Below, piece after piece: positions 1,260 through 20,829 of a DNA stretch of 40,876 bases. Made by a program: the position numbers and the translations under genes. Where the stretch lies: the UHGV virus genome UHGV-0428632. The stretch is one strand, 5' to 3'. The first letter of the stretch is position 1. The number at the start of each line of letters is the position of its first letter. Below the pieces are notes generated by a model that saw nothing but the letters and a program-made list of their open reading frames with translations, was not told where the DNA came from and did no database searches. The DNA comes from a virus.

Positions 1260-2626
1260 ACCGGTGCTCCTTTTGCGTACCTTCTGCCTTGCGCTGGCTT
1301 GCTGTCTGTAGAAGCTTTGCGCGCCTCTTCCTGGTCGCAATCATGAAAATGTCCGTTAATGAATCGTTGGTATACTGTTCCAAGCGATCCAAACCTGTTT
1401 TTGGTAACGATTATTTCTGCAAACGGTGCTGCGGGGGAGTTCTCATCATACACCGCTTCACGGTAAAGCATGATGATGGAGTCAGCATCCTGCTCAATGC
1501 TTCCTGAGTCGCGGAGATCTGAGTTATTTGGACGCTTGTTAGGACGGTCCTCAACCTTTCTCGACAACTGGCTAAGAGAAATAACCGTTGTGCGAAGCTC
1601 TTTAGCCATTGCCTTGAGGCTTCCTGAGATATGAGCAATAGCAAGGTCATTTCGCTCTGATTTTGGCTTGTCAATTAGACCGAGGTAATCGACCATGATG
1701 AGAGATAGGTCTGGGTGCTCCTGTTTTTGACGCTCTGCAACACTGCGAATTTGTTCTACCGTGAGCTTAGAAGCATCTACCAGCCAAACGTCCAACTCTT
1801 TGAGCGTACATATTCCATTCGCGATACGCGCCCATCCTTCATCGTCCAACTTGGCTGGATTTCGAAGAACGTTTACTGACATATTCCCACTACCGGCAAT
1901 GCTCCTCTCCGCTATCTGCGTCTTACTCATCTCCATTGAGAAAATCAGCACGCCACGCTTTCGATTTGTACCTGGTATCTCTTTAGAAGCTACTCCCTCG
2001 GCTATCTTGAGAGAGATTTCCGTCTTTCCGCACCCGGGACGAGCTGCGATGATCACGAGGTCTTCTGGGTTCATTCCGCCAGTAATTGCATCGAGCTCAG
2101 CAATTCCAGTTTTAAGCGTGTCGGATTCCTCTCCATTGCGTAGTCGCTTGTCCAGAATGTCCGTGTACTCAGTGAGAACTTCCTTCAAATGGACAGGTTT
2201 AACTTCCCCTCTAGGTTTACGAATAAGTGATAACTTTGTCGTTAACTCGTCTATGGCTGCCGCCGATGTGTCACGCGTTCCGTTGCTGATAACACCTCGC
2301 ACATCGTCAATAAGCTTGAGTACCATTCGGCGCTCATGCATATCAGCTACCATTCCTGCATAACCCTTCAGGTTTGCTGTGCTAGGGCAGTTTTTGGCAG
2401 CCTCCATCACATCGGCAAAATGTTCATCACCGCACTCCTCTGCGACCATGAGGCCGTCGATCATGTTTCTTGTGCGAGCATGTTTGCGGATGACAGAGAA
2501 GACTTTCTGATACAGCGGAATGGCAAAAGATTCTGGCTCAAGCATTTCCAGCACATCGTTTGCAGATGGCGTTAACCCTCCCAGGAGTAATCCGCCGATA
2601 ACGCTGGCCTCGATATCCTGTCTCAT
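1256..2626 (-). CDS. Replicative DNA helicase, DnaB family (P22 gene 12 / lambda P functional equivalent)
   Basis: 456 aa. DnaB N-terminal domain, Walker A motif [13 protein letters not shown], and RecA-like C-terminal motifs. Sits downstream of the O-like initiator. Confidence 0.9.
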
Positions 2627-3429
2627 AGTGTTCCCTCACGAATTGCGGTTAATACTTTCGGTTGCAGCAGGTAATCAAACGTCGCCACCCAGCCACGGTA
2701 GTTATCGCCGAAATGGAATGGCCTTGCAGCGGACATGAACGCTTTCACGTATGCCCGGTAGCCGTCGATGTTTTTGGTAGCGAGAGAGTTAATCAGCTTC
2801 TTGAGTTTTCGCTGACGCTCTGCGTTGGCCTCTACAGCGTGAGGTAATCTGTCACCCACGATTTCGTTGTAGGCTTCGAGATACTCGTTGTAGTTGATGC
2901 GAACGGCCTTTCGCTTTTCAGGTTTAGAAACCTCATCGCATCCCCCTTTAGGGGGTAAGGGGGTATTTGTATTTATTGTCTTTTGAATATTGTCTTTTGT
3001 GTTTAGCTGAGTTGGCTTATACCCATTAGCTGACTTGGCTAATGTTTTATTAGCCGCCTTAGCTAAAGTTAAGCTGTCTTGGCTAATCCACTCTGAGACC
3101 ACCTTGTTAACGCCAATTCTCACGCCGTCTGCAATGAGAAACTTGCGTTCAATCAGCTGACGTTTAGCGGCGCAGATATGCGTGTGATGAATACCGGTCA
3201 TTGCTGCTATCTGCGTGTTTGTGAGCCTGTCCATTGGCTTATTGAATCCGTATGTCTTGCGCATGATAGCGAGCATTACCTTCAACTGCCGGGCGGTTAA
3301 ATCAGCCATCAGTAAGCTGTCTGTAAGCTCGTTAGCAACGCGCATGAAGCCATCTTCGGTATCTGCCACGCGATGCTCCACAACCTCAAGGTGAGGCTTT
3401 ATAGGTGTTACGGTTGCGAGATTACTCAT
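2623..3429 (-). CDS. O: Replication initiation protein, lambda O-like (P22 gene 18-like)
   Basis: 268 aa. O-type N-terminal region (…[36 protein letters not shown]…). Iteron array lies inside the gene. Position is cII -> O -> helicase. Confidence 0.85.
2941..3092. repeat. Putative ori. Four ~20-bp iterons (AGCTGAnTTGGCTAA-like, about 3003-3090), an adjacent AT-rich tract (2965-3003) and a CCCCCTTTAGGGGG palindrome (2942-2955), all inside the O-like gene
   Basis: Direct repeats: ttagctgagttggcttatacc / cattagctgacttggctaatg / ttattagccgccttagctaaag / ttaagctgtcttggctaatcc. Layout matches lambda ori inside O. Confidence 0.7.
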
Positions 3430-11951: not shown

Positions 11952-12238
11952 TGGAATCACACAGCCTCACACTCGATGAGGCCTGTGCACTCAATCCCCT
12001 TCCCTGTTCAATTCCCAATCCGGAGATGAAACCTATGCGCGAACTTCGCGACGACTCACTCATTGACATGAAATTCATTATGGAGGATTCTGGATTTTCA
12101 GATCGCTACTTCTACAAGCACATCCAGAAGGGCGACTTCCCTCCACCTATCAAATATGGCCGCTCCTCTAAATGGCTGTATGGTGATTATCAAGCCTGGA
12201 AACGCAGCTTCATCCCTGACCTTAAAAAAGCATCATGA
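11948..12238 (+). CDS. xis: AlpA-family excisionase / transcriptional regulator (Xis)
   Basis: C-terminal …MKFIMEDSGFSDRYFYKHIQKGDFPPPIKYGRSSKWLYGDYQAWK… is an AlpA/Xis-type HTH. Lies immediately upstream of int. The true start may be internal. Confidence 0.65.
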   Translation: MMESHSLTLDEACALNPLPCSIPNPEMKPMRELRDDSLIDMKFIMEDSGFSDRYFYKHIQKGDFPPPIKYGRSSKWLYGDYQAWKRSFIPDLKKAS

Positions 12239-12246
12239 CCACGCTT

Positions 12247-12505
12247 TGCGGGCATAATTGCGGGCATAATATTTTCCACTTCTGCATTTCATTATAAATC
12301 CCATGCACTTAGACGCTTTATGTGATGTCTGCAGGGGACACCATTTTTAACAGAACCCACCTCTCCGCTTCAGAACCAAACGCCCATCACACCTTAATCA
12401 TTAGATATTCATACACAACCGAAGCGAACCAAAGCGAATTGACTACAGCAAACTATTGCGGGCATATTGTGGGCACACTTCAAAATGACCACGGATTTAT
12501 GCCCA
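12247..12505. repeat. Direct and inverted repeats of TGCGGGCATAAT upstream of int (candidate Xis/AlpA or Int-arm binding sites)
   Basis: Tandem TGCGGGCATAAT x2 (12247-12270). TGCGGGCATATT followed by GTGGGCACACTT (12457-12480). Inverted ATGCCCACA (12497-12505) abuts the int start. Confidence 0.5.
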
Positions 12506-12506
12506 C

Positions 12507-13676
12507 ATGCTTACGGTAAAGCAAATCGACGCAGCCAAACCTGCGGAAAAGTCATATCGCCTCGCAGATGCCGGAGGGCTTTTCCTGTTTGTTCCGCCAT
12601 CAGGTAAAAAGGTTTGGCGTATGCGTTACCGGTTCGACGGGAAAGAAAAGACGCTTGTCATTGGACCCTACCCAGAAATCTCATTAACCGAAGCCAGAGC
12701 AAAACAGTCCGAAGCGAAAATGAAGCTTCTGGCAGGTGTCGACCCGGCAGAGCAGAAACAGGCCATAAAGAAGAAAGAGAAAGAAGAAGCGGCTGATTCG
12801 TTCGGCGATATCTTCCGTGAGTGGCATGCTCACAAATCAAAGGTATGGTCTAAAGGATATGCTGACGAGATGATGAGCATGTTCACAGACGATATCTTGC
12901 CTGTCATTGGTCATCTTAAAATGGAAGACGTTGAGCCTATGGTGCTGCTGAAGGTCATCAGATTATTCGAGGACAGGGGCGCAATGGAACGTGCTGATAA
13001 GGCGAGGAGAAGGTGTGGTGAGGTATTCAGTTATGCGATCATAACCGGCAGGGCTAGATATAACCCCTCCAGAGACCTAGCAGGAGCGATGAAAGGATAC
13101 AGGAAGCAGAACTATCCTTTCCTTCCTATGCACCGCATACACGAATTCCAGCGTGCTTTAAACGCATATGGCGGTTGGATTGTATCGAAGATAGCAGCGC
13201 AGATTCTTCACTATACCGCTATGCGAACAGTGGAATTGCGCTCGCTGGTATGGACGGGAATTGATTACGAAACCAGGTTAATCAGTGTTGACCCTGCTGT
13301 CATGAAAGGCAGGAAGCTTCATGTAGTTCCAATGTCAGACCAGGTTATCGAACTATTCAAGTTCCTGCAACAAATTACCGGGCAGTATGAGCTGTGCTTC
13401 CCGGGTAGAACCGACAGGAAGAAGCCTATCAGTGAGAACGCTGTACTCGGTGTGATACGCAGCATTGGCTACGAAGGACAGACGAGCGGGCATGGTATGC
13501 GACATCAGTTCAGTACCGTACTCAACGAAAAGCACTGGAACAAAGACGCGATAGAGATGCAACTGGCGCACGTTAGCGGCGGTACTCGCTCAGTGTACAA
13601 CCACGCTGAATACCTCGATACACGTCGTGAAATGATGCAGTGGTGGGCAGACTGGCTAGACGAGAAGGTGGCATAA
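12507..13676 (+). CDS. int: Tyrosine integrase (P4-type, with N-terminal arm-binding DUF4102 domain)
   Basis: 389 aa. N-terminal …YRLADAGGLFLFVPPSGKKVWRMRYRF… Catalytic C-terminus with R…HGMRHQFST…H…Y (NHAEYLD). Confidence 0.9.
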   Translation: MLTVKQIDAAKPAEKSYRLADAGGLFLFVPPSGKKVWRMRYRFDGKEKTLVIGPYPEISLTEARAKQSEAKMKLLAGVDPAEQKQAIKKKEKEEAADSFGDIFREWHAHKSKVWSKGYADEMMSMFTDDILPVIGHLKMEDVEPMVLLKVIRLFEDRGAMERADKARRRCGEVFSYAIITGRARYNPSRDLAGAMKGYRKQNYPFLPMHRIHEFQRALNAYGGWIVSKIAAQILHYTAMRTVELRSLVWTGIDYETRLISVDPAVMKGRKLHVVPMSDQVIELFKFLQQITGQYELCFPGRTDRKKPISENAVLGVIRSIGYEGQTSGHGMRHQFSTVLNEKHWNKDAIEMQLAHVSGGTRSVYNHAEYLDTRREMMQWWADWLDEKVA

Positions 13677-13682
13677 CGCCAC

Positions 13683-14072
13683 CTACATCACCGGACAATC
13701 ATCAAACTCGCCCGTTCTCATATCGTTTATGCTGTAGGTGATCACCCCAAACACTGGCCGCGAAGAATCACTGGTTTCATCCTTCGATGGCAGAGCCTCT
13801 CTCCTTCCTGTTTCCGGGTTCTCCAGATAAGGCTGTGGATGAGTCCTGTAACGTCTGATTTTAAATTCCCCATCGATTGCACACACAAGTAGTGAGCCGT
13901 CTTTCGGCGTCAATGATGAGTCCACGATAAGCATCGCTCCTTTCAGTATCCCTGCACGAAGGTATGTCGTACCGGCTACCATCATGTACGTAGCAGAAGG
14001 GTGGGCAATAAATCTCTGGTCAAGTGATATGCGTTCTTCAACGTAGTCTGCTGCTGGCGACGGGAATCCCAT
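13683..14072 (-). CDS. UmuD'-like (HumD-like) SOS mutagenesis accessory protein: pre-truncated and Ser/Lys dyad-substituted
   Basis: 129 aa. Begins MGFPSPAADYVEERI…, exactly at the UmuD Cys24/Gly25 cleavage junction. Colinear with UmuD through …VDGEF…VFGV…. Ser60 -> Thr (AGTTY in place of SGDSM) and Lys97 -> Arg. RBS GGAGGTG. Confidence 0.75.
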   Translation of the reverse strand: MGFPSPAADYVEERISLDQRFIAHPSATYMMVAGTTYLRAGILKGAMLIVDSSLTPKDGSLLVCAIDGEFKIRRYRTHPQPYLENPETGRREALPSKDETSDSSRPVFGVITYSINDMRTGEFDDCPVM

Positions 14073-14089
14073 AATGCACCTCCGATAGT

Positions 14090-14109
14090 TACTGTATATG
14101 CATACAGTA
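14090..14109. promoter_or_regulatory. LexA (SOS) box upstream of the umuD'-like gene
   Basis: TACTGTATATGCATACAGTA is a perfect CTGT-N8-ACAG palindrome. It lies 18-37 bp upstream of the ATG at 14072. Confidence 0.75.
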
Positions 14110-14185
14110 TTATCGATCGGCGGTATCGATCAATAGCGTTTGTAGTGCTACACTTCAGACCTTTCCGAATTCACTGATTTCTATA

Positions 14186-14548
14186 ATGTTAAAGTTATTC
14201 GCCAGGTACACATCAATAGGTGTTATTAACACGCTCATTCACTGGGTTGTGTTCGCTATTTGCATCTATGTATTCCACACGGGTCAGGCTCTTGGCAACT
14301 TTGCCGGGTTCGTTGTGGCTGTATCGTTCAGCTTCTTCGCCAATGCCAGATTCACGTTTAAGGCCTCTACTACCACGCTTCGCTACATGCTATACGTGGG
14401 ATTCATGGGAACGCTTAGCGCTGCTGTTGGTTGGTGTGCTGACAAATCAGGCCTTGCGCCTGTCATCACGTTAATCGTGTTCTCCGCCATCAGTCTGGTG
14501 TGCGGTTTTATCTATTCAAAGTTCATTGTCTTTAGGGATGCGAAATGA
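14186..14548 (+). CDS. gtrA: GtrA, bactoprenol-linked glucose translocase (flippase)
   Basis: 120 aa, 4-TM. Near-identical in pattern to Shigella/Salmonella phage GtrA ([21 protein letters not shown]…[10 protein letters not shown]). Confidence 0.85.
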
Positions 14549-15462
14549 AAATTTCTCTTGTCGTTCCGGTATTTAATGAAGAGGAAGCAATTCCAATCTT
14601 CTATAAAACCGTGCGGGAATTTGAGGGTTTGCTGCAGCATGAAGTCGAGATAGTATTCATCAATGACGGCAGCAAAGATGCAACAGAGTCAATTATTAAT
14701 GCGCTGGCGGTTGCCGACCCGCTTGTGGTTCCGCTGTCATTCACTCGTAACTTCGGGAAAGAGCCCGCTCTGTTTGCCGGACTTGACCACGCCACTGGTG
14801 ATGCGGTTATTCCTATAGACGTTGATCTGCAGGACCCGATTGAAGTCATTCCGCATCTGATTGAGAAGTGGCAGGACGGCGCAGACATGGTTCTGGCTAA
14901 GCGTTCTGATCGCTCTACTGATGGAAGGCTCAAGCGTAAGACCGCTGAGTGGTTCTATAAGCTACACAACAAAATCAGTAACCCTAAAATTGAGGAAAAC
15001 GTTGGCGACTTCCGCCTTATGTCCCGCGAGGTGGTAGAAAACATTAAGCTCATGCCAGAGCGCAACCTGTTCATGAAGGGCGTCCTGAGCTGGGTTGGCG
15101 GCCGTACAGATGTCGTTGAATATTCCCGCGCAGAACGCGTTGCAGGAAGCACAAAATTCAACGGATGGAAGCTATGGAACCTGGCGCTAGAGGGTATCAC
15201 CAGCTTCTCTACATTCCCGCTGCGCATGTGGACCTATATAGGCCTGTTCGTAGCAGGTGCAGCTTTCCTGTACGGAGCCTGGATGATATTCGACACGCTT
15301 GTTTTCGGAAACGCTGTTCGTGGTTATCCATCTTTGCTGGTGTCAATACTTTTCTTGGGCGGCATTCAATTGATTGGTATTGGGGTACTTGGTGAGTATA
15401 CAGGAAGGATATACGTTGAAGTTAAGCAGAGGCCTAGATACGTTCTGAAGGGAAAACAATGA
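14545..15462 (+). CDS. gtrB: GtrB, bactoprenol glucosyltransferase (GT2 family)
   Basis: 305 aa. …[12 protein letters not shown]…INDGSKD… DxD region and C-terminal TM helices. ATGA overlap with gtrA. Confidence 0.9.
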
Positions 15463-16949
15463 ATACAAACCACTTGAAAGTTGCATTGCTTTGCATTAGT
15501 TGCTTGCTTTGCGTAGCTGTGTCCACTTATTATTTCAACCTCCGTGGTGGATTACATCTAGATGAATCTCTATCGCTAATATTATCATCATATAGCGACT
15601 ATGGATGGACTAAAGTTTTCACCAACGAAAGTTTAACTGGATCTCAGCTAAGACAGCTCGTTTGGTTCGGAGATACATCAATAAGTGGAACAGCTAACGC
15701 CATATTTAATCTGTGGATTGATAATAGAGATTCACCGCATAGCAACCTTTATTATTCAGCTTTGAGATTGTGGTTTGTTGGGTTTGATGTAAATCAAGAA
15801 CCATATAACTTTATGTGGAGAGCGTTTTATTTAAACCTGCTAATAGCAGTAGGTTGCTGCTACCTATTATTCAATGTTACATTCAAGCTTTTTAAAAATG
15901 CGATTTTATCATCCATTTTAGTCGTGCTTGCAATTTGTAATGATGTCTCTGTATCTAACGTAATATACATACGACCATACTTACTGCAGACACTTTTGAT
16001 CTTTGCATACATTTATTCAACGGTATCTATACTGCAAGATTTCAGAATCAAAAAAACAGTAACTTTTAAATATGCCTTGTCGACATCATTAGCCTTGCTA
16101 AGCGGTTACTTTGCAATAATTTTCGTTGCAATGCTTGGTTCTTTTTATTTAGCAATTGCATTCCATAACTTCAATAAAAAAGATGTTCTTAAGTTCTGTT
16201 ACTCATACCTACCATTCACTGCGGTTTTGTCGTTTTTAATATACCCTCCATATTTCTTTGTTTTTGGAAATAGACAAGAGGAGGCAGTAAGCAAGCTTGG
16301 CTCTGTGTGGGAAAATATTATTTCCGCAGCAAATAGTGTTGATATATGGAGGAACGCTTTTGCATTTCCTGTGGCATCTTCAATGGCATCAATCGCATTG
16401 GCTGTATTTTATTACTTTAAAGTTAGAGATGGTGAAATAAAACTAAGAATATCAATACAGTTATCTCTGCTGGTTACCGCTATTCTATGGCTGTTGCTGG
16501 TAGAATTTTTCGCTCCATACAAAACCGCTAGGTACGTATATCCAGTCATTCCATTACTTTCAATCTCTTTAGGCATTATTTGGCAGGTTATATCAACTTA
16601 CTCCAATAAGATTGGATTGGCATACATTTTCCTGATATCGACAGCTTGCCTTAACACGTCTTTTACTGGAAAAAATGTCGAGTACCTTTATCCGGATAGA
16701 GAATATGATTGCTCAAGATTCCACAACGAGAAAGTTGCCGTTGTGACGTCACAACCATGGGCGCTGGCAGTTTCAACGGAGTGCTTTGATTCTACAACTA
16801 GATATTCCTTATTTAAATCAATGGAATATGTCGACTATGGAAAGTTTGATTTCATCATCTCTGAAATTGATCTACCAGACAATAAGGATGTAAAGTTGGT
16901 GTCAAACAGGGTGATGTACGCCTACAAAATGTATAAAGTTATAAAATAG
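15459..16949 (+). CDS. gtrC: GtrC-type serotype-specific O-antigen glucosyltransferase (polytopic membrane protein)
   Basis: 496 aa, many TM segments. Very AT-rich compared with the rest of the genome. Third gene of the gtr cassette, coupled to gtrB. Confidence 0.7.
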
Positions 16950-18849: not shown

Positions 18850-20829
18850 CTATTCGCTTAATGCTTCAGATTTCGCACCCTGAGCGAATGAGTTAATTAC
18901 TCGCTCAACATCAGATAACGCTTTCTCAAAGGCTGTAGAGCCTCGTGGAGTGTTTGCCAGGCGAAGCATTGCATTTCGTACAGGCTCGCTTTCATACATC
19001 CTTGCCAGCAATCCATATCCGCCGCCAGCCCCTATCAACGCCGGATTTGTTACAGTTCCGATTCCCATGATGAATGGGATAGCCTGTTGGCCTGTAGGTG
19101 TAGTAACACCTGCCTGCCCTGCCCTCTTCGTTGATTCCAGATAGTTCTTCAGCCCTTTCAGATATGCGGCATCACGACCTTTGAACGCGATTCCCGTCTG
19201 GTTAGACATCAGGTTAACTTGTCGCAGAAACTGGTCAGGAGAGCCGCCTGATTTTTCCATGGCTTTGCCAATGATTCCGTTACGCATCTGCGCGCGCCCA
19301 ATCTGACCTACAGAGTTATAAAGATTCTGCACTTCAGACTTGTTCTTGCTGAAAAGCATGTTGTTAACTACCTCAGGCGTTAGATCGCCTTTCATCAGAA
19401 CGTTCTTCAGGCGCGTATTCTGGAGTTTGCTGGCCTCATCTGCGTATACAGCGTTAGCCTGTTTGTAACGGCGCAGGGTGTCGTTACCAAGATTCTGACC
19501 TATCGAGCTATCAATATCTCCTGTCATGGCTCTATAGACTCGCTGTATAGCCGCATCTGAGCGGTTTGGCATAACTACTCGCTCACCTTTCACATCCTGC
19601 CTGAACTGGCTGCGGAGATTGCTCAGTTGTTGCAAATCAACGTTACCTCCAGCAAGCTCATCACGATACGCCTGGAGCTTACTGATGGTGTCGTTATCGG
19701 CAACCTTGCCTAGTTTCTGGAGGCTGGATATCTCATCATCAATTTGCTGCAGAGCTCGCGTTGGTTGGATGTTTACGCCAGTCATTGCATTTTGCACCTG
19801 CTCAAGACGATTACCCGCGGCTTGCTTAATGCCTGCAGTTTTTGATTTCAGGCTGCCTATAACAATTGACGGGTCATACTCACCAAACCGAGAAGCATAT
19901 TCATTCACCAACTGGCTTCGCGCTTCCTGCTGATTGGCTCGCATAGTGCTTGTACCAGCGAATGGGATGTTTTCAGCCGTAGTTTGCGCCATTCTTCCAA
20001 CGCGGGAATTTGGCTGCAGGACATCAGTTGTGTGTAGCGGAACGTCAGCAGAATTGGCGAATCGGATCGCCTGCTGCGCTTCTGGCGAGATTGCGCCTTT
20101 TACACCACGATAGGCAGCGCCAGCAACGCGCCCAAGTTGATTGATAGCGCCACCCAATACAACACCTGTTCCAAGTTCTGTAGCTAGAGCTTCGGGGTTG
20201 TTCTGCTCACTATTTGCAGCCATTGACCCTACTGCGTTTTCTGCCAGAAGGCGTGATGCTCCCTGCGCGACTCGTCCGGCAATGGTTGGGGCTTGTGCCG
20301 CAATACGCTCAGCACCTACAGGTGTAAGATACGGAAGTGCCTCTGCGAAGATTTTCCCTTCTGTCGTCTGTGGCGTTAGCGCCCCTTGCTGAAGGCCTAA
20401 ATCCTGTGCCAGTCCTTCAGTTGTTACGCGTGGCGCTGGTTGGTATGTCCCATCACCTAGTCCCAGTTTATTGCCTGCCCATGCCCCTGCGCTTGCGACT
20501 GCATCTGCCATAGATGCTGGGATGTTCGCCACATTTACGCCAGCCTGAAGTAGACCCCTCCCCGTTTCTGCTGCCGCATTCCCAAGGTCAGACAGGAATC
20601 CTCCCTGTTCTTGTGGCTGCGCTTCTTGCCGAGGCTGTTGCTGTGCCCGAGTATCTGCTGAAGGCACTGGATATGCAGCATAGAAAGCCTGTTTAGCCTG
20701 CTCTGCGTTGCTGCCAGCCTGGGGAGCAACTACCTCGTTGAAGTATTGCTCCTGCGCCTGTGCTTTCTGCTCCGGTGCCAATGCCTGATACTGCTGAGAG
20801 GCAATAACGTCTTTCCATGCCTTAGCCAT
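18850..20829 (-). CDS. gp16: Ejection (E) protein, P22 gp16-like
   Basis: 659 aa. Last gene of the gp7/gp20/gp16 block by position. Low-complexity Q/A-rich N-terminus. Confidence 0.7.
   Translation of the reverse strand: MAKAWKDVIASQQYQALAPEQKAQAQEQYFNEVVAPQAGSNAEQAKQAFYAAYPVPSADTRAQQQPRQEAQPQEQGGFLSDLGNAAAETGRGLLQAGVNVANIPASMADAVASAGAWAGNKLGLGDGTYQPAPRVTTEGLAQDLGLQQGALTPQTTEGKIFAEALPYLTPVGAERIAAQAPTIAGRVAQGASRLLAENAVGSMAANSEQNNPEALATELGTGVVLGGAINQLGRVAGAAYRGVKGAISPEAQQAIRFANSADVPLHTTDVLQPNSRVGRMAQTTAENIPFAGTSTMRANQQEARSQLVNEYASRFGEYDPSIVIGSLKSKTAGIKQAAGNRLEQVQNAMTGVNIQPTRALQQIDDEISSLQKLGKVADNDTISKLQAYRDELAGGNVDLQQLSNLRSQFRQDVKGERVVMPNRSDAAIQRVYRAMTGDIDSSIGQNLGNDTLRRYKQANAVYADEASKLQNTRLKNVLMKGDLTPEVVNNMLFSKNKSEVQNLYNSVGQIGRAQMRNGIIGKAMEKSGGSPDQFLRQVNLMSNQTGIAFKGRDAAYLKGLKNYLESTKRAGQAGVTTPTGQQAIPFIMGIGTVTNPALIGAGGGYGLLARMYESEPVRNAMLRLANTPRGSTAFEKALSDVERVINSFAQGAKSEALSE

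What the first reader, a model, noticed from the sequence alone, without database searches (positions are those of the whole stretch)
13677..14185. SOS-controlled, pre-cleaved UmuD'-mimic with a disabled Ser/Lys dyad, inserted at the int/gtr junction
The 129-aa ORF at 13683..14072 starts MGFPSPAADYVEERI…, precisely at the residue that becomes the N-terminus of UmuD' after RecA-mediated autocleavage (Cys24/Gly25 in E. coli UmuD). The N-terminal arm and cleavage site are therefore absent, and the protein is born 'activated'. The catalytic Ser (SGDSM) reads AGTTY, and Lys97 is Arg (FKIRRY against FTVKKL). Self-cleavage is thus both unnecessary and probably impossible, while the dimerisation and C-terminal beta regions (VDGEF, VFGVI) are kept. 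A perfect LexA box TACTGTATATGCATACAGTA overlaps its promoter, and no umuC/dinB partner is nearby. This resembles P1 HumD (a LexA-regulated UmuD' homologue). Here it sits as a moron where P22-like phages carry attP, between int and gtrA. A phage-supplied UmuD' could commandeer host UmuC into Pol V during the same SOS response that induces the prophage, or could modulate RecA/DinB.
Basis: partly seen in the sequence, partly recalled or inferred. Interest (0 to 1): 0.7.

Follow-up and report, generated by a model that had tools for sequence, protein, structure and literature searches.

The report
Phage HumD gene under LexA control
This is an ordinary member of the known HumD family: a phage gene for a ready-made, uncut-able copy of the bacterial mutagenesis protein UmuD', switched on by DNA damage. 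The same gene is found at this position in many related prophages.

Summary
A 129-aa ORF lies at 13683..14072 on the minus strand and starts at the UmuD Gly25 equivalent. No in-frame upstream start is possible. It has Thr at the Ser60 position and Arg at the Lys97 position. A LexA box (14090..14109, 18 of 20 matches to consensus) ends 17 nt before the ATG. No umuC is in the window.

It is not new. It matches the NCBIfam equivalog NF051876 'HumD family translesion DNA polymerase' end to end (208.7 bits, cut-off 120). It is 65% identical to P1 HumD and 86% to the phage HK639 protein annotated 'UmuD'.

Of 128 relatives aligned, 125 start with Met at the column of UmuD Cys24, immediately before the conserved Gly25. 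Thr at position 60 is the family norm (117 of 128). Position 97 varies (K 65, M 53, R 7). The LexA box is present in 55 of 59 homologous loci I checked, usually at the same 17-nt spacing.

The int, humD, gtrA layout recurs in E. coli argW prophages, an Enterobacter phage and, as a pseudogene, Salmonella phage BTP1.

One correction: in this phage attP lies upstream of int (about 12329..12350), not between int and gtrA.

Most likely function, by homology with P1 HumD: an SOS-induced UmuD' surrogate for host UmuC.

The parts
13683..14072 (-). humD-family gene, 129 aa. It is UmuD'-sized with no N-terminal arm or cleavage site. Thr36 sits at the Ser60 position and Arg73 at the Lys97 position.
   Evidence: ORF list. 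NCBIfam NF051876, 208.7 bits, profile positions 1-129 of 129. Pfam PF00717. PHROG 811 'UmuD-like'. PDB UmuD', E 5.6e-22. dN/dS of 0.035-0.15 against homologues.
14077..14083 (-). Shine-Dalgarno sequence GGAGGTG, 4 nt before the ATG.
   Evidence: Sequence. GGAGGTG recurs at the same place in most of the homologous upstream regions listed. Coordinates.
14090..14109 (.). LexA (SOS) box TACTGTATATGCATACAGTA. It ends 17 nt before the humD ATG.
   Evidence: 18 of 20 matches to consensus, 0 of 100 shuffles. A CTGT-N8-ACAG box is present in 55 of 59 homologous loci, 43 of them at exactly 17 nt from the ATG. LexA sites are annotated at the equivalent place in P1 and phiKO2.
14106..14111 (-). Candidate -10 hexamer AATACT, 16 nt after the -35, overlapping the LexA box by 4 nt. 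The better-looking GATAAT at 14109..14114 is only 13 nt from the -35. Inferred, not mapped.
   Evidence: The generic consensus scan found no promoter at its threshold.
14128..14133 (-). Candidate -35 hexamer TTGATC.
   Evidence: TTGAY lies 23-24 nt before the LexA 20-mer in 42 of 51 distinct homologous upstream regions. These include regions whose other upstream sequence differs.
12507..13676 (+). Context: P4/IntS-type tyrosine integrase. It is convergent with humD, and the two stop codons are 6 nt apart.
   Evidence: Pfam Arm-DNA-bind_3, Phage_int_M and Phage_integrase. Integrase genes (annotated 'tyrosine-type recombinase/integrase' and 'prophage integrase IntS') sit next to argW in the E. 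coli prophages.
12329..12350 (+). Context: probable attP core, identical at 20 of 22 positions to the 3' end of tRNA-Arg argW. It ends 164 nt upstream of int.
   Evidence: blastn of the E. coli HL15 argW-int region against the window. Sequence. The tRNA-to-int distance is the same in L004.
14186..16949 (+). Context: gtrA, gtrB and gtrC O-antigen modification operon, divergent from humD across a 113-nt intergenic region.
   Evidence: ORFs. Pfam GtrA_DPMS_TM. P22 gtrA/gtrB similarity. The same divergent pairing occurs in 10 of 51 viral loci.

Best explanation
The ORF is a HumD-family gene, that is, a phage-borne, orphan, UmuD'-sized homologue of the Pol V accessory subunit.

Shown here:
- It belongs to the curated HumD family and is made without the N-terminal arm and cleavage site.
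- It lacks the Ser/Lys dyad.
- It is under strong purifying selection.
- It carries a conserved near-consensus LexA box over its probable -10 and start region, 17 nt before the ATG.

Inferred mechanism. In the lysogen, host LexA keeps the gene off. DNA damage activates RecA*, LexA cleaves itself, and humD is transcribed together with host umuDC. The protein needs no slow RecA*-mediated processing, so it can dimerise at once and load onto host UmuC. That gives a Pol V-like translesion polymerase (HumD2-UmuC) earlier than the host's own UmuD' would appear. This helps a damaged host or phage genome to be replicated while the prophage is being induced. The function is taken from P1 HumD, which complements UmuD' (P1 record note; PMC7092418; McLenigan et al. 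1999, title seen, content from my own knowledge).

The Thr and Arg substitutions should not impair this role. The dyad is needed only for self-cleavage, which is irrelevant to a protein born cleaved (established knowledge of UmuD').

The gene and its LexA-controlled promoter behave as a self-contained cassette at the int/att end of temperate phages.
For: Family and fold:
- NCBIfam HumD equivalog, 208.7 bits against a cut-off of 120, full length.
- 65% identity to P1 and P7 HumD, 86% to the HK639 protein annotated 'UmuD', and 64% to the phiKO2 UmuD-like protein.
- UmuD' structures, E about 1e-22.
- 22 of the first 28 residues are identical to UmuD' residues 25-52.

Family-wide features:
- 125 of 128 relatives have Met at the Cys24 column and 126 have Gly at the Gly25 column.
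- LexA box at 18 of 20, with 0 of 100 shuffles matching.
- The box is conserved in 55 of 59 loci, with a modal distance of 17 nt.
- HK140, one of the four loci without a box directly upstream, has one ahead of a two-gene operon that includes humD.
- A TTGAY -35 lies at a fixed distance in 42 of 51 distinct upstream regions.

Selection and partners:
- dN/dS of 0.035-0.15.
- No umuC in the window, as for P1.

Prior knowledge:
- RefSeq annotates the same gene between int and gtrA at argW as 'HumD family translesion DNA polymerase'.
Against: - No experiment exists on this protein or on any Thr/Arg variant.
- Function is transferred from P1 HumD at 65% identity, and P1 HumD keeps Ser and Lys.
- As I recall it, P1 complementation needed high copy number.
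- The host and its umuC are not in the window, so the partner is assumed.
- The family has an insertion and a conserved C-terminal extension (NDxRxGEFDDCPVM) that UmuD' lacks. Its role is unknown and could point to another partner.
- The promoter is inferred, and the consensus scan found none.
- The structure model was unusable (pLDDT 42.7).
Confidence: 0.78

Rival explanations
1. The protein is a HumD-family member by descent, but it works mainly as a modulator of RecA* and the SOS response rather than as a Pol V subunit. It might bind RecA filaments, host UmuD or DinB, and so tune repressor cleavage, recombination or the UmuD checkpoint during prophage induction.
For: - In phiKO2 and HK140 the humD gene shares one LexA box with a divergent dinI, a known RecA-filament modulator.
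- No cognate umuC travels with it in any phage examined.
- The family has its own conserved C-terminal tail, absent from UmuD.
- P1 HumD binds RecA filaments in vitro (my recollection of McLenigan 1999).
Against: - The only experimental data for the family, on P1 HumD, show UmuD'-type complementation (note).
- The UmuD' N-terminal segment is almost unchanged, with 22 of 28 residues identical. That fits retained UmuD' partnerships.
- The two roles are not mutually exclusive.
Confidence: 0.15
2. The ORF is a decaying remnant, either a 5'-truncated umuD or the C-terminal fragment of an S24 repressor, and has no function of its own.
For: - It lacks the N-terminus and the catalytic dyad.
- Degraded copies do exist elsewhere. 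BTP1 has a broken copy. Fragments covering aa 46-128 occur in Stx2 phages, Sf101 and mEp234.
- Some sources name relatives 'LexA family transcriptional regulator'.
Against: - dN/dS of 0.035-0.15 with dS above 1.
- The length is nearly constant across the family: most of the 120 relatives listed are 129 aa, and most full-length copies in the viral loci span the same 129 codons.
- The start codon, Shine-Dalgarno sequence and LexA box are conserved at fixed spacing.
- The HumD model scores 208.7 bits, against 34.3 for LexA (cut-off 110.95) and 90.4 for UmuD (cut-off 110).
- There is no DNA-binding domain.
Confidence: 0.03

Closest known systems
Bacteriophage P1 / P7 HumD (NCBIfam NF051876, HumD family translesion DNA polymerase)
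   Same: - Both are 129 aa and 65% identical.
- Both start MGFPSPAADYVE at the UmuD Gly25 equivalent.
- Both end in the family tail GEFDDCPV(M/I).
- Both are orphans with no umuC.
- Both have a LexA box 17-19 nt before the ATG.
- Both are carried by a temperate phage.

   Different: - P1 HumD keeps Ser and Lys at the dyad positions, whereas this protein has Thr and Arg.
- P1 is a plasmid prophage, and its humD is divergent from lxr and next to phd-doc.
- Here the gene lies between a convergent integrase and a divergent gtrABC operon in a P22-like integrating phage.
E. coli UmuD' (processed Pol V accessory subunit; PDB 1umu, 1i4v, 1ay9)
   Same: - Same S24 fold by sequence (E about 1e-22).
- 43.5% identity over 115 aligned residues, with 22 of 28 identical in the N-terminal segment.
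- Same size as the cleaved form.
- LexA-regulated.

   Different: - UmuD' is made by RecA*-stimulated self-cleavage of UmuD at Cys24/Gly25, using Ser60 and Lys97, and is encoded in an operon with umuC.
- This protein is translated directly in the short form and lacks both catalytic residues.
- It scores below the UmuD model cut-off (90.4 against 110).
- It has an internal insertion and a C-terminal extension of about 10 aa, and has no umuC.

HumD/UmuD-like genes of lambdoid and linear-plasmid phages (HK639 'UmuD', HK140 gp28, phiKO2 gp23, N15 gp26) and of E. coli argW prophages
   Same: - 64-86% identity.
- LexA box upstream.
- Placed at the att/int end of the genome as an accessory cassette.
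- E. coli HL15 has the same argW, int, then convergent humD order, followed by other genes. E. coli XJ34 and Enterobacter phage vB_Ecl_MII_001 have the full int, then convergent humD, then divergent gtrA order.

   Different: - Neighbours differ: a tail-fibre gene or dinI instead of gtrA.
- HK140 has humD as the second gene of a LexA-controlled operon.
- The residue at position 97 differs (K, M or L).

Membership tests
HumD family (NCBIfam NF051876) | Full-length match to the curated equivalog profile above its cut-off | tested here: met
   208.7 bits against a cut-off of 120, residues 1-129 on profile positions 1-129.
HumD family (NCBIfam NF051876) | Translated directly in UmuD' form: it starts at the Gly25 equivalent, with no N-terminal arm and no Cys/Ala-Gly cleavage site | tested here: met
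   Met1-Gly2 aligns with Cys24-Gly25. There is no in-frame start upstream. 125 of 128 relatives are the same.
HumD family (NCBIfam NF051876) | Orphan gene on a phage or mobile element, with no cognate umuC | tested here: met
   The backbone is a P22-like phage. None of the 14 ORFs of 250 aa or more is a Y-family polymerase.
HumD family (NCBIfam NF051876) | LexA operator upstream (SOS control) | tested here: met
   The sequence element is present and conserved, and equivalent sites are annotated in P1 and phiKO2. Actual LexA binding cannot be tested with these tools.
HumD family (NCBIfam NF051876) | Functionally replaces UmuD': dimerises, binds UmuC and RecA*, and restores SOS mutagenesis | not testable with these tools
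   Known only for P1 HumD (note; PMC7092418). The AlphaFold model was too poor to use.
UmuD proper (NCBIfam NF007621, autoproteolytic subunit of Pol V) | Profile score above the cut-off | tested here: not met
   90.4 bits against a cut-off of 110.
UmuD proper (NCBIfam NF007621, autoproteolytic subunit of Pol V) | Ser60/Lys97 catalytic dyad and a cleavable N-terminal arm | tested here: not met
   Thr and Arg sit at the two columns, and the arm is absent.
UmuD proper (NCBIfam NF007621, autoproteolytic subunit of Pol V) | Operon with umuC | tested here: not met
   The flanking genes are int (convergent) and gtrA (divergent).
LexA / phage CI-type S24 repressors | N-terminal DNA-binding domain plus a catalytic S24 domain, with a profile match | tested here: not met
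   TIGR00498 scores 34.3 bits against a cut-off of 110.95. Only the C-terminal domain aligns (residues 3-82 to profile positions 90-170), and there is no room for a helix-turn-helix domain.

The most novel reading that the evidence does not exclude
The HumD family as a whole may have become a pseudo-protease. The Lys97 column reads K, M, R, L or S, and Thr is nearly fixed at the Ser60 position. The family also has a conserved tail of its own (GEFDDCPVM), and in some phages the gene is paired with dinI. All this could reflect a phage-specific job other than Pol V assembly. One example would be tuning RecA* activity, and thus the timing of prophage induction, or blocking a host response. In that case the 'UmuD' surrogate' activity seen for over-expressed P1 HumD would be a side effect.
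Probability: 0.12. Interest if true: 0.5.

Novelty: new member of a known kind. Interest (0 to 1): 0.15.

Why it matters
It matters little as a discovery. Current pipelines would label this gene 'HumD family translesion DNA polymerase', and the idea of a pre-activated, LexA-controlled phage UmuD' dates from work on P1 in 1999.

Three small points add something:
- The LexA box, the -35 hexamer and the 17-nt spacing to the ATG are conserved across dozens of otherwise mosaic phages, so the gene moves as a self-contained SOS cassette.
- Once self-cleavage became unnecessary, the catalytic Lys became freely replaceable while Thr was fixed at the Ser position. This is a tidy natural experiment showing that the dyad is dispensable for whatever HumD does.
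- In this phage lineage the int, humD and gtr genes form a block next to argW that is shared between podovirus-type and myovirus-type prophages.

Prophage-supplied UmuD' surrogates could raise SOS mutagenesis in lysogens of Enterobacter, E. coli and Salmonella. That is relevant to the evolution of antibiotic resistance, but it remains untested.

Tried and rejected
- AlphaFold2 on a 42-sequence alignment gave mean pLDDT 42.7 and pTM 0.22. All sequences were at least 66% identical, so the alignment was too shallow. I ran no fold search and draw no structural claim from the model.
- The generic sigma-70 and terminator scan found nothing around the gene. The promoter is therefore inferred from conservation only.
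- The primary HumD paper (McLenigan 1999; PMC94175, PubMed id 10559166) is not held. I saw only its title and secondary statements.
- An exact-sequence look-up of the window protein found no record. The nearest relative, P0001 (98%), lies in a different, myovirus-type prophage at argW.
- I rejected a hidden N-terminal extension.
- I rejected a repressor fragment.
- I rejected a pseudogene.
- I rejected attP lying between int and gtrA in this phage.
- I rejected LexA control of gtrA through the same box. The box lies at least 77 nt upstream of the gtrA ATG, on the far side of the humD -35, which is a poor position for repression. This is inference only.

Full report
**1. What is in the sequence**

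The ORF is real and lies on the minus strand at 13683..14072. It encodes 129 aa, MGFPSPAADYVEERISLDQRF...GEFDDCPVM. A strong Shine-Dalgarno sequence (GGAGGTG, 14083..14077) lies 4 nt before the ATG.

Reading upstream in frame gives a stop 20 codons before the ATG, with no ATG, GTG or TTG between them. An N-terminal arm therefore cannot be restored.

The 20-mer TACTGTATATGCATACAGTA at 14090..14109 matches the gammaproteobacterial LexA consensus TACTGTATATATATACAGTA at 18 of 20 positions. No match with 3 or fewer mismatches appeared in 100 dinucleotide-preserving shuffles of the window. The bare CTGT-N8-ACAG core would not be significant alone, since 47 of 100 shuffles had one. The box is the only one in the window.

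The gene is flanked by a convergent integrase (12507..13676, with stop codons 6 nt apart) and a divergent gtrA-gtrB-gtrC operon (14186..16949). The window as a whole is a P22-like phage genome. Its morphogenesis genes are about 77% identical to those of ST64T, g341c and phage L.

**2. What the protein is**

| Search | Result |
|---|---|
| Pfam | Peptidase_S24 (PF00717) |
| PHROGs | phrog_811 'UmuD-like', E 4e-47 |
| NCBIfam NF051876, HumD family (equivalog) | 208.7 bits, cut-off 120, residues 1-129 on profile 1-129 |
| NCBIfam NF007621, UmuD | 90.4 bits, below cut-off 110 |
| NCBIfam TIGR00498, LexA | 34.3 bits, below cut-off 110.95 |
| PDB sequences | UmuD' 1umu, 1i4v, 1ay9 and UmuD K97A 8gmt_B, E about 1e-22 |

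Against solved structures, Gly2 aligns with Gly25 of UmuD. GTTY aligns with GDSM, so Ser60 is Thr. KIRRY aligns with TVKKL, so Lys97 is Arg. The K97A chain marks that same column independently.

By tblastn, the protein is 86% identical to the phage HK639 protein annotated 'UmuD' and 69% to HK140 gp28. It is 65% identical to P1 and P7 HumD and 64% to the phiKO2 UmuD-like protein. In the large protein collection, many of the named relatives among the closest 120 are called 'HumD family translesion DNA polymerase'. They come mostly from Enterobacter, and also from Lelliottia, Citrobacter, E. coli and Salmonella.

**3.

I aligned 128 relatives with E. coli UmuD.

| UmuD column | Residues found in 128 HumD relatives |
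|---|---|
| Cys24 | Met in 125 |
| Gly25 | Gly in 126 |
| Ser60 | Thr 117, Ser 8, Ala 2, Met 1 |
| Lys97 | Lys 65, Met 53, Arg 7, Leu 2, Ser 1 |

- Only 6 of the 128 keep both Ser and Lys. P1 HumD is one of them.
- The neighbouring residues of that strand (E69, F70, R74, Y75, R76 in window numbering) are 98% conserved.
- So the catalytic Lys has become freely replaceable, while Thr is nearly fixed at the Ser position.
- This is what one expects once self-cleavage is no longer needed.
- The sample consists of the 120 closest hits plus phage sequences, so the proportions are not unbiased.
- The family also shares an internal insertion and a conserved C-terminal extension (NDxRxGEFDDCPVM) that UmuD lacks.

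The gene is under strong purifying selection. dN/dS is 0.035-0.15 against 11 homologues with dS above 1 (two further pairs, including P1, gave no value because dS was saturated). It is not a remnant.

**4. Regulation**

I examined the upstream regions of 59 homologous loci: 51 IMG/VR viral contigs, 5 phages and 3 prophages or related elements.

- 55 carry CTGT-N8-ACAG before the ATG, and 43 of those end exactly 17 nt from the ATG, as here.
- P1 has an annotated LexA site 19 nt before humD, and phiKO2 has an annotated site shared with a divergent dinI.
- HK140, one of the four loci without a box directly upstream, has humD as the second gene of an operon. That operon's upstream region, shared with dinI, holds the box.
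- L025 and L057 carry a damaged box. L019 has a HK140-like upstream sequence, and I did not search further upstream in it.
- In 42 of 51 distinct upstream sequences, a TTGAY hexamer lies 23-24 nt before the 20-mer. This holds even where the rest of the upstream sequence differs.
- In the window this hexamer is TTGATC at 14133..14128. With a 16-nt spacer the -10 would be AATACT (14111..14106), overlapping the box.
- A better-looking GATAAT (14114..14109) abuts the box but is only 13 nt from the -35.

Either way, LexA bound to the box would cover the -10 and start region. The promoter is inferred. The generic scan found none at its threshold, which fits a weak promoter.

**5. Position in the genome**

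That is true of canonical P22-like phages. In BTP1, the same gtrA-to-LexA-box intergenic region is followed by a broken humD copy (MEFPSP..., frame interrupted), and the D23580 locus tags jump between that copy and int.

This phage, however, has a P4/IntS-type integrase. In E. coli HL15 the order is tRNA-Arg (argW), int, then a convergent humD, followed by other genes. In E. coli XJ34 the order is argW, int, humD, then gtrA/gtrB.

The 3' end of argW matches window 12329..12350 at 20 of 22 positions. Its last base lies 164 nt before the int ATG, the same distance as in HL15. So attP lies upstream of int, and int, humD and gtr stay together in the prophage.

The same layout occurs elsewhere:
- Enterobacter phage vB_Ecl_MII_001 has it.
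- Ten of 51 viral loci have gtrA/gtrB divergent from humD.
- Two viral loci have the same integrase (97% identity) convergent with humD.
- The closest protein (98% identical) lies in a myovirus-type prophage at argW, with the same kind of integrase and a gtrB-type Glycos_transf_2 gene.

Elsewhere the cassette follows tail-fibre genes next to att/int, as in HK639 and HK140. It is therefore a mobile accessory cassette of temperate enterobacterial phages.

**6. How it most likely works**

Shown here are family membership, the born-short form, the loss of the dyad, the conserved LexA operator, purifying selection and the absence of umuC.

Inferred is the following sequence. LexA represses the gene in the lysogen. 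DNA damage removes LexA. The protein is then made in a form that needs no RecA*-mediated processing, dimerises, and joins host UmuC to give a Pol V-like translesion polymerase.

The basis for this is P1 HumD. The P1 record notes that it 'functionally complements E. coli UmuD''. [quoted passage not shown] The primary paper (McLenigan et al. 1999) could not be read here. From my own knowledge, it reports dimerisation and binding to UmuC and RecA filaments, and complementation mainly at high copy number.

The Thr and Arg substitutions should be neutral for this role, because the dyad serves only self-cleavage (established knowledge of UmuD).

The main rival is that the family chiefly modulates RecA* and the SOS response. 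The pairing with dinI and the family-specific tail suggest this. I give it about 0.15. The two roles are not exclusive.

**7. Comparison and novelty**

The gene passes every testable defining feature of the HumD family. It fails those of UmuD proper and of LexA/CI-type repressors (see the membership table).

It is a new member of a known kind, 98% identical to the nearest recorded sequence. RefSeq already annotates the same arrangement. Interest is low.

Noticed in passing
window 12329-12350 (and 12439-12468): The probable attP core is identical at 20 of 22 positions to the 3' end of tRNA-Arg argW. It ends 164 nt upstream of int, the same distance as in an E. coli argW prophage. A promoter-like site (TTGACT-18-CATATT) lies between it and int.
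   Followed up: partly
L008 (Salmonella phage BTP1) 2380-2906: BTP1 carries the same gtrA-proximal intergenic region, with TTGATC and an intact LexA box (TACTGTATTAATATACAGTA). Its humD copy is broken: it begins MEFPSP, the frame is interrupted, and only an 86-aa internal ORF remains. The record annotates a hypothetical protein on the opposite strand there.
   Followed up: partly
phage records (Stx2 phages 1717, 2851, WGPS6/8; Sf101; mEp234; E212): Fragments matching only residues 46-128 of HumD lie near the ends of several Stx2-converting prophage records. Similar fragments occur in Sf101 and mEp234 and are mostly unannotated. They may be remnants left at att/int mosaic joints.
   Followed up: no
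window 13683-13730 (residues 116-129) and homologues: The HumD family has a conserved C-terminal extension, NDxRxGEFDDCPVM, that UmuD lacks. There is also an insertion around residues 85-105. The function is unknown.
   Followed up: no
window about 13751-13755: E. coli prophage matches that cover int stop about 70 nt inside the 3' end of humD. Other matches start at 13544, 13596 or 13687 and run into gtrA. This points to mosaic recombination joints in or next to the conserved humD 3' end.
   Followed up: no
L001 (HK140) 2410-3390; L007 (phiKO2) 2181-2884: In HK140, humD is the second gene after a 79-aa ORF of unknown function, and a single LexA box (2721-2736) is shared with a divergent dinI. 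phiKO2 also pairs dinI and the UmuD-like gene around shared LexA sites.
   Followed up: partly
window 13677-13682 and 12200-14300: The int and humD stop codons are 6 nt apart and convergent, and no terminator-like structure was found on either strand. SOS-induced humD transcripts could therefore run antisense into int. This is speculation and was not examined further.
   Followed up: no
window 14110-14185: The 113-nt humD-gtrA intergenic region is conserved as a unit in BTP1, the Enterobacter phage and several viral contigs. It holds two GATC sites, one inside the putative -35. gtrA has no obvious Shine-Dalgarno sequence, and a TATAAT overlaps its ATG. gtr operons of P22-like phages are known for Dam/OxyR phase variation (from my own knowledge).
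   Followed up: no
window 15459-16949 and 18850-20829: The gtrC-position ORF (496 aa) and a 659-aa ORF next to the injection-protein gene have no Pfam match at E <= 0.001.
   Followed up: no
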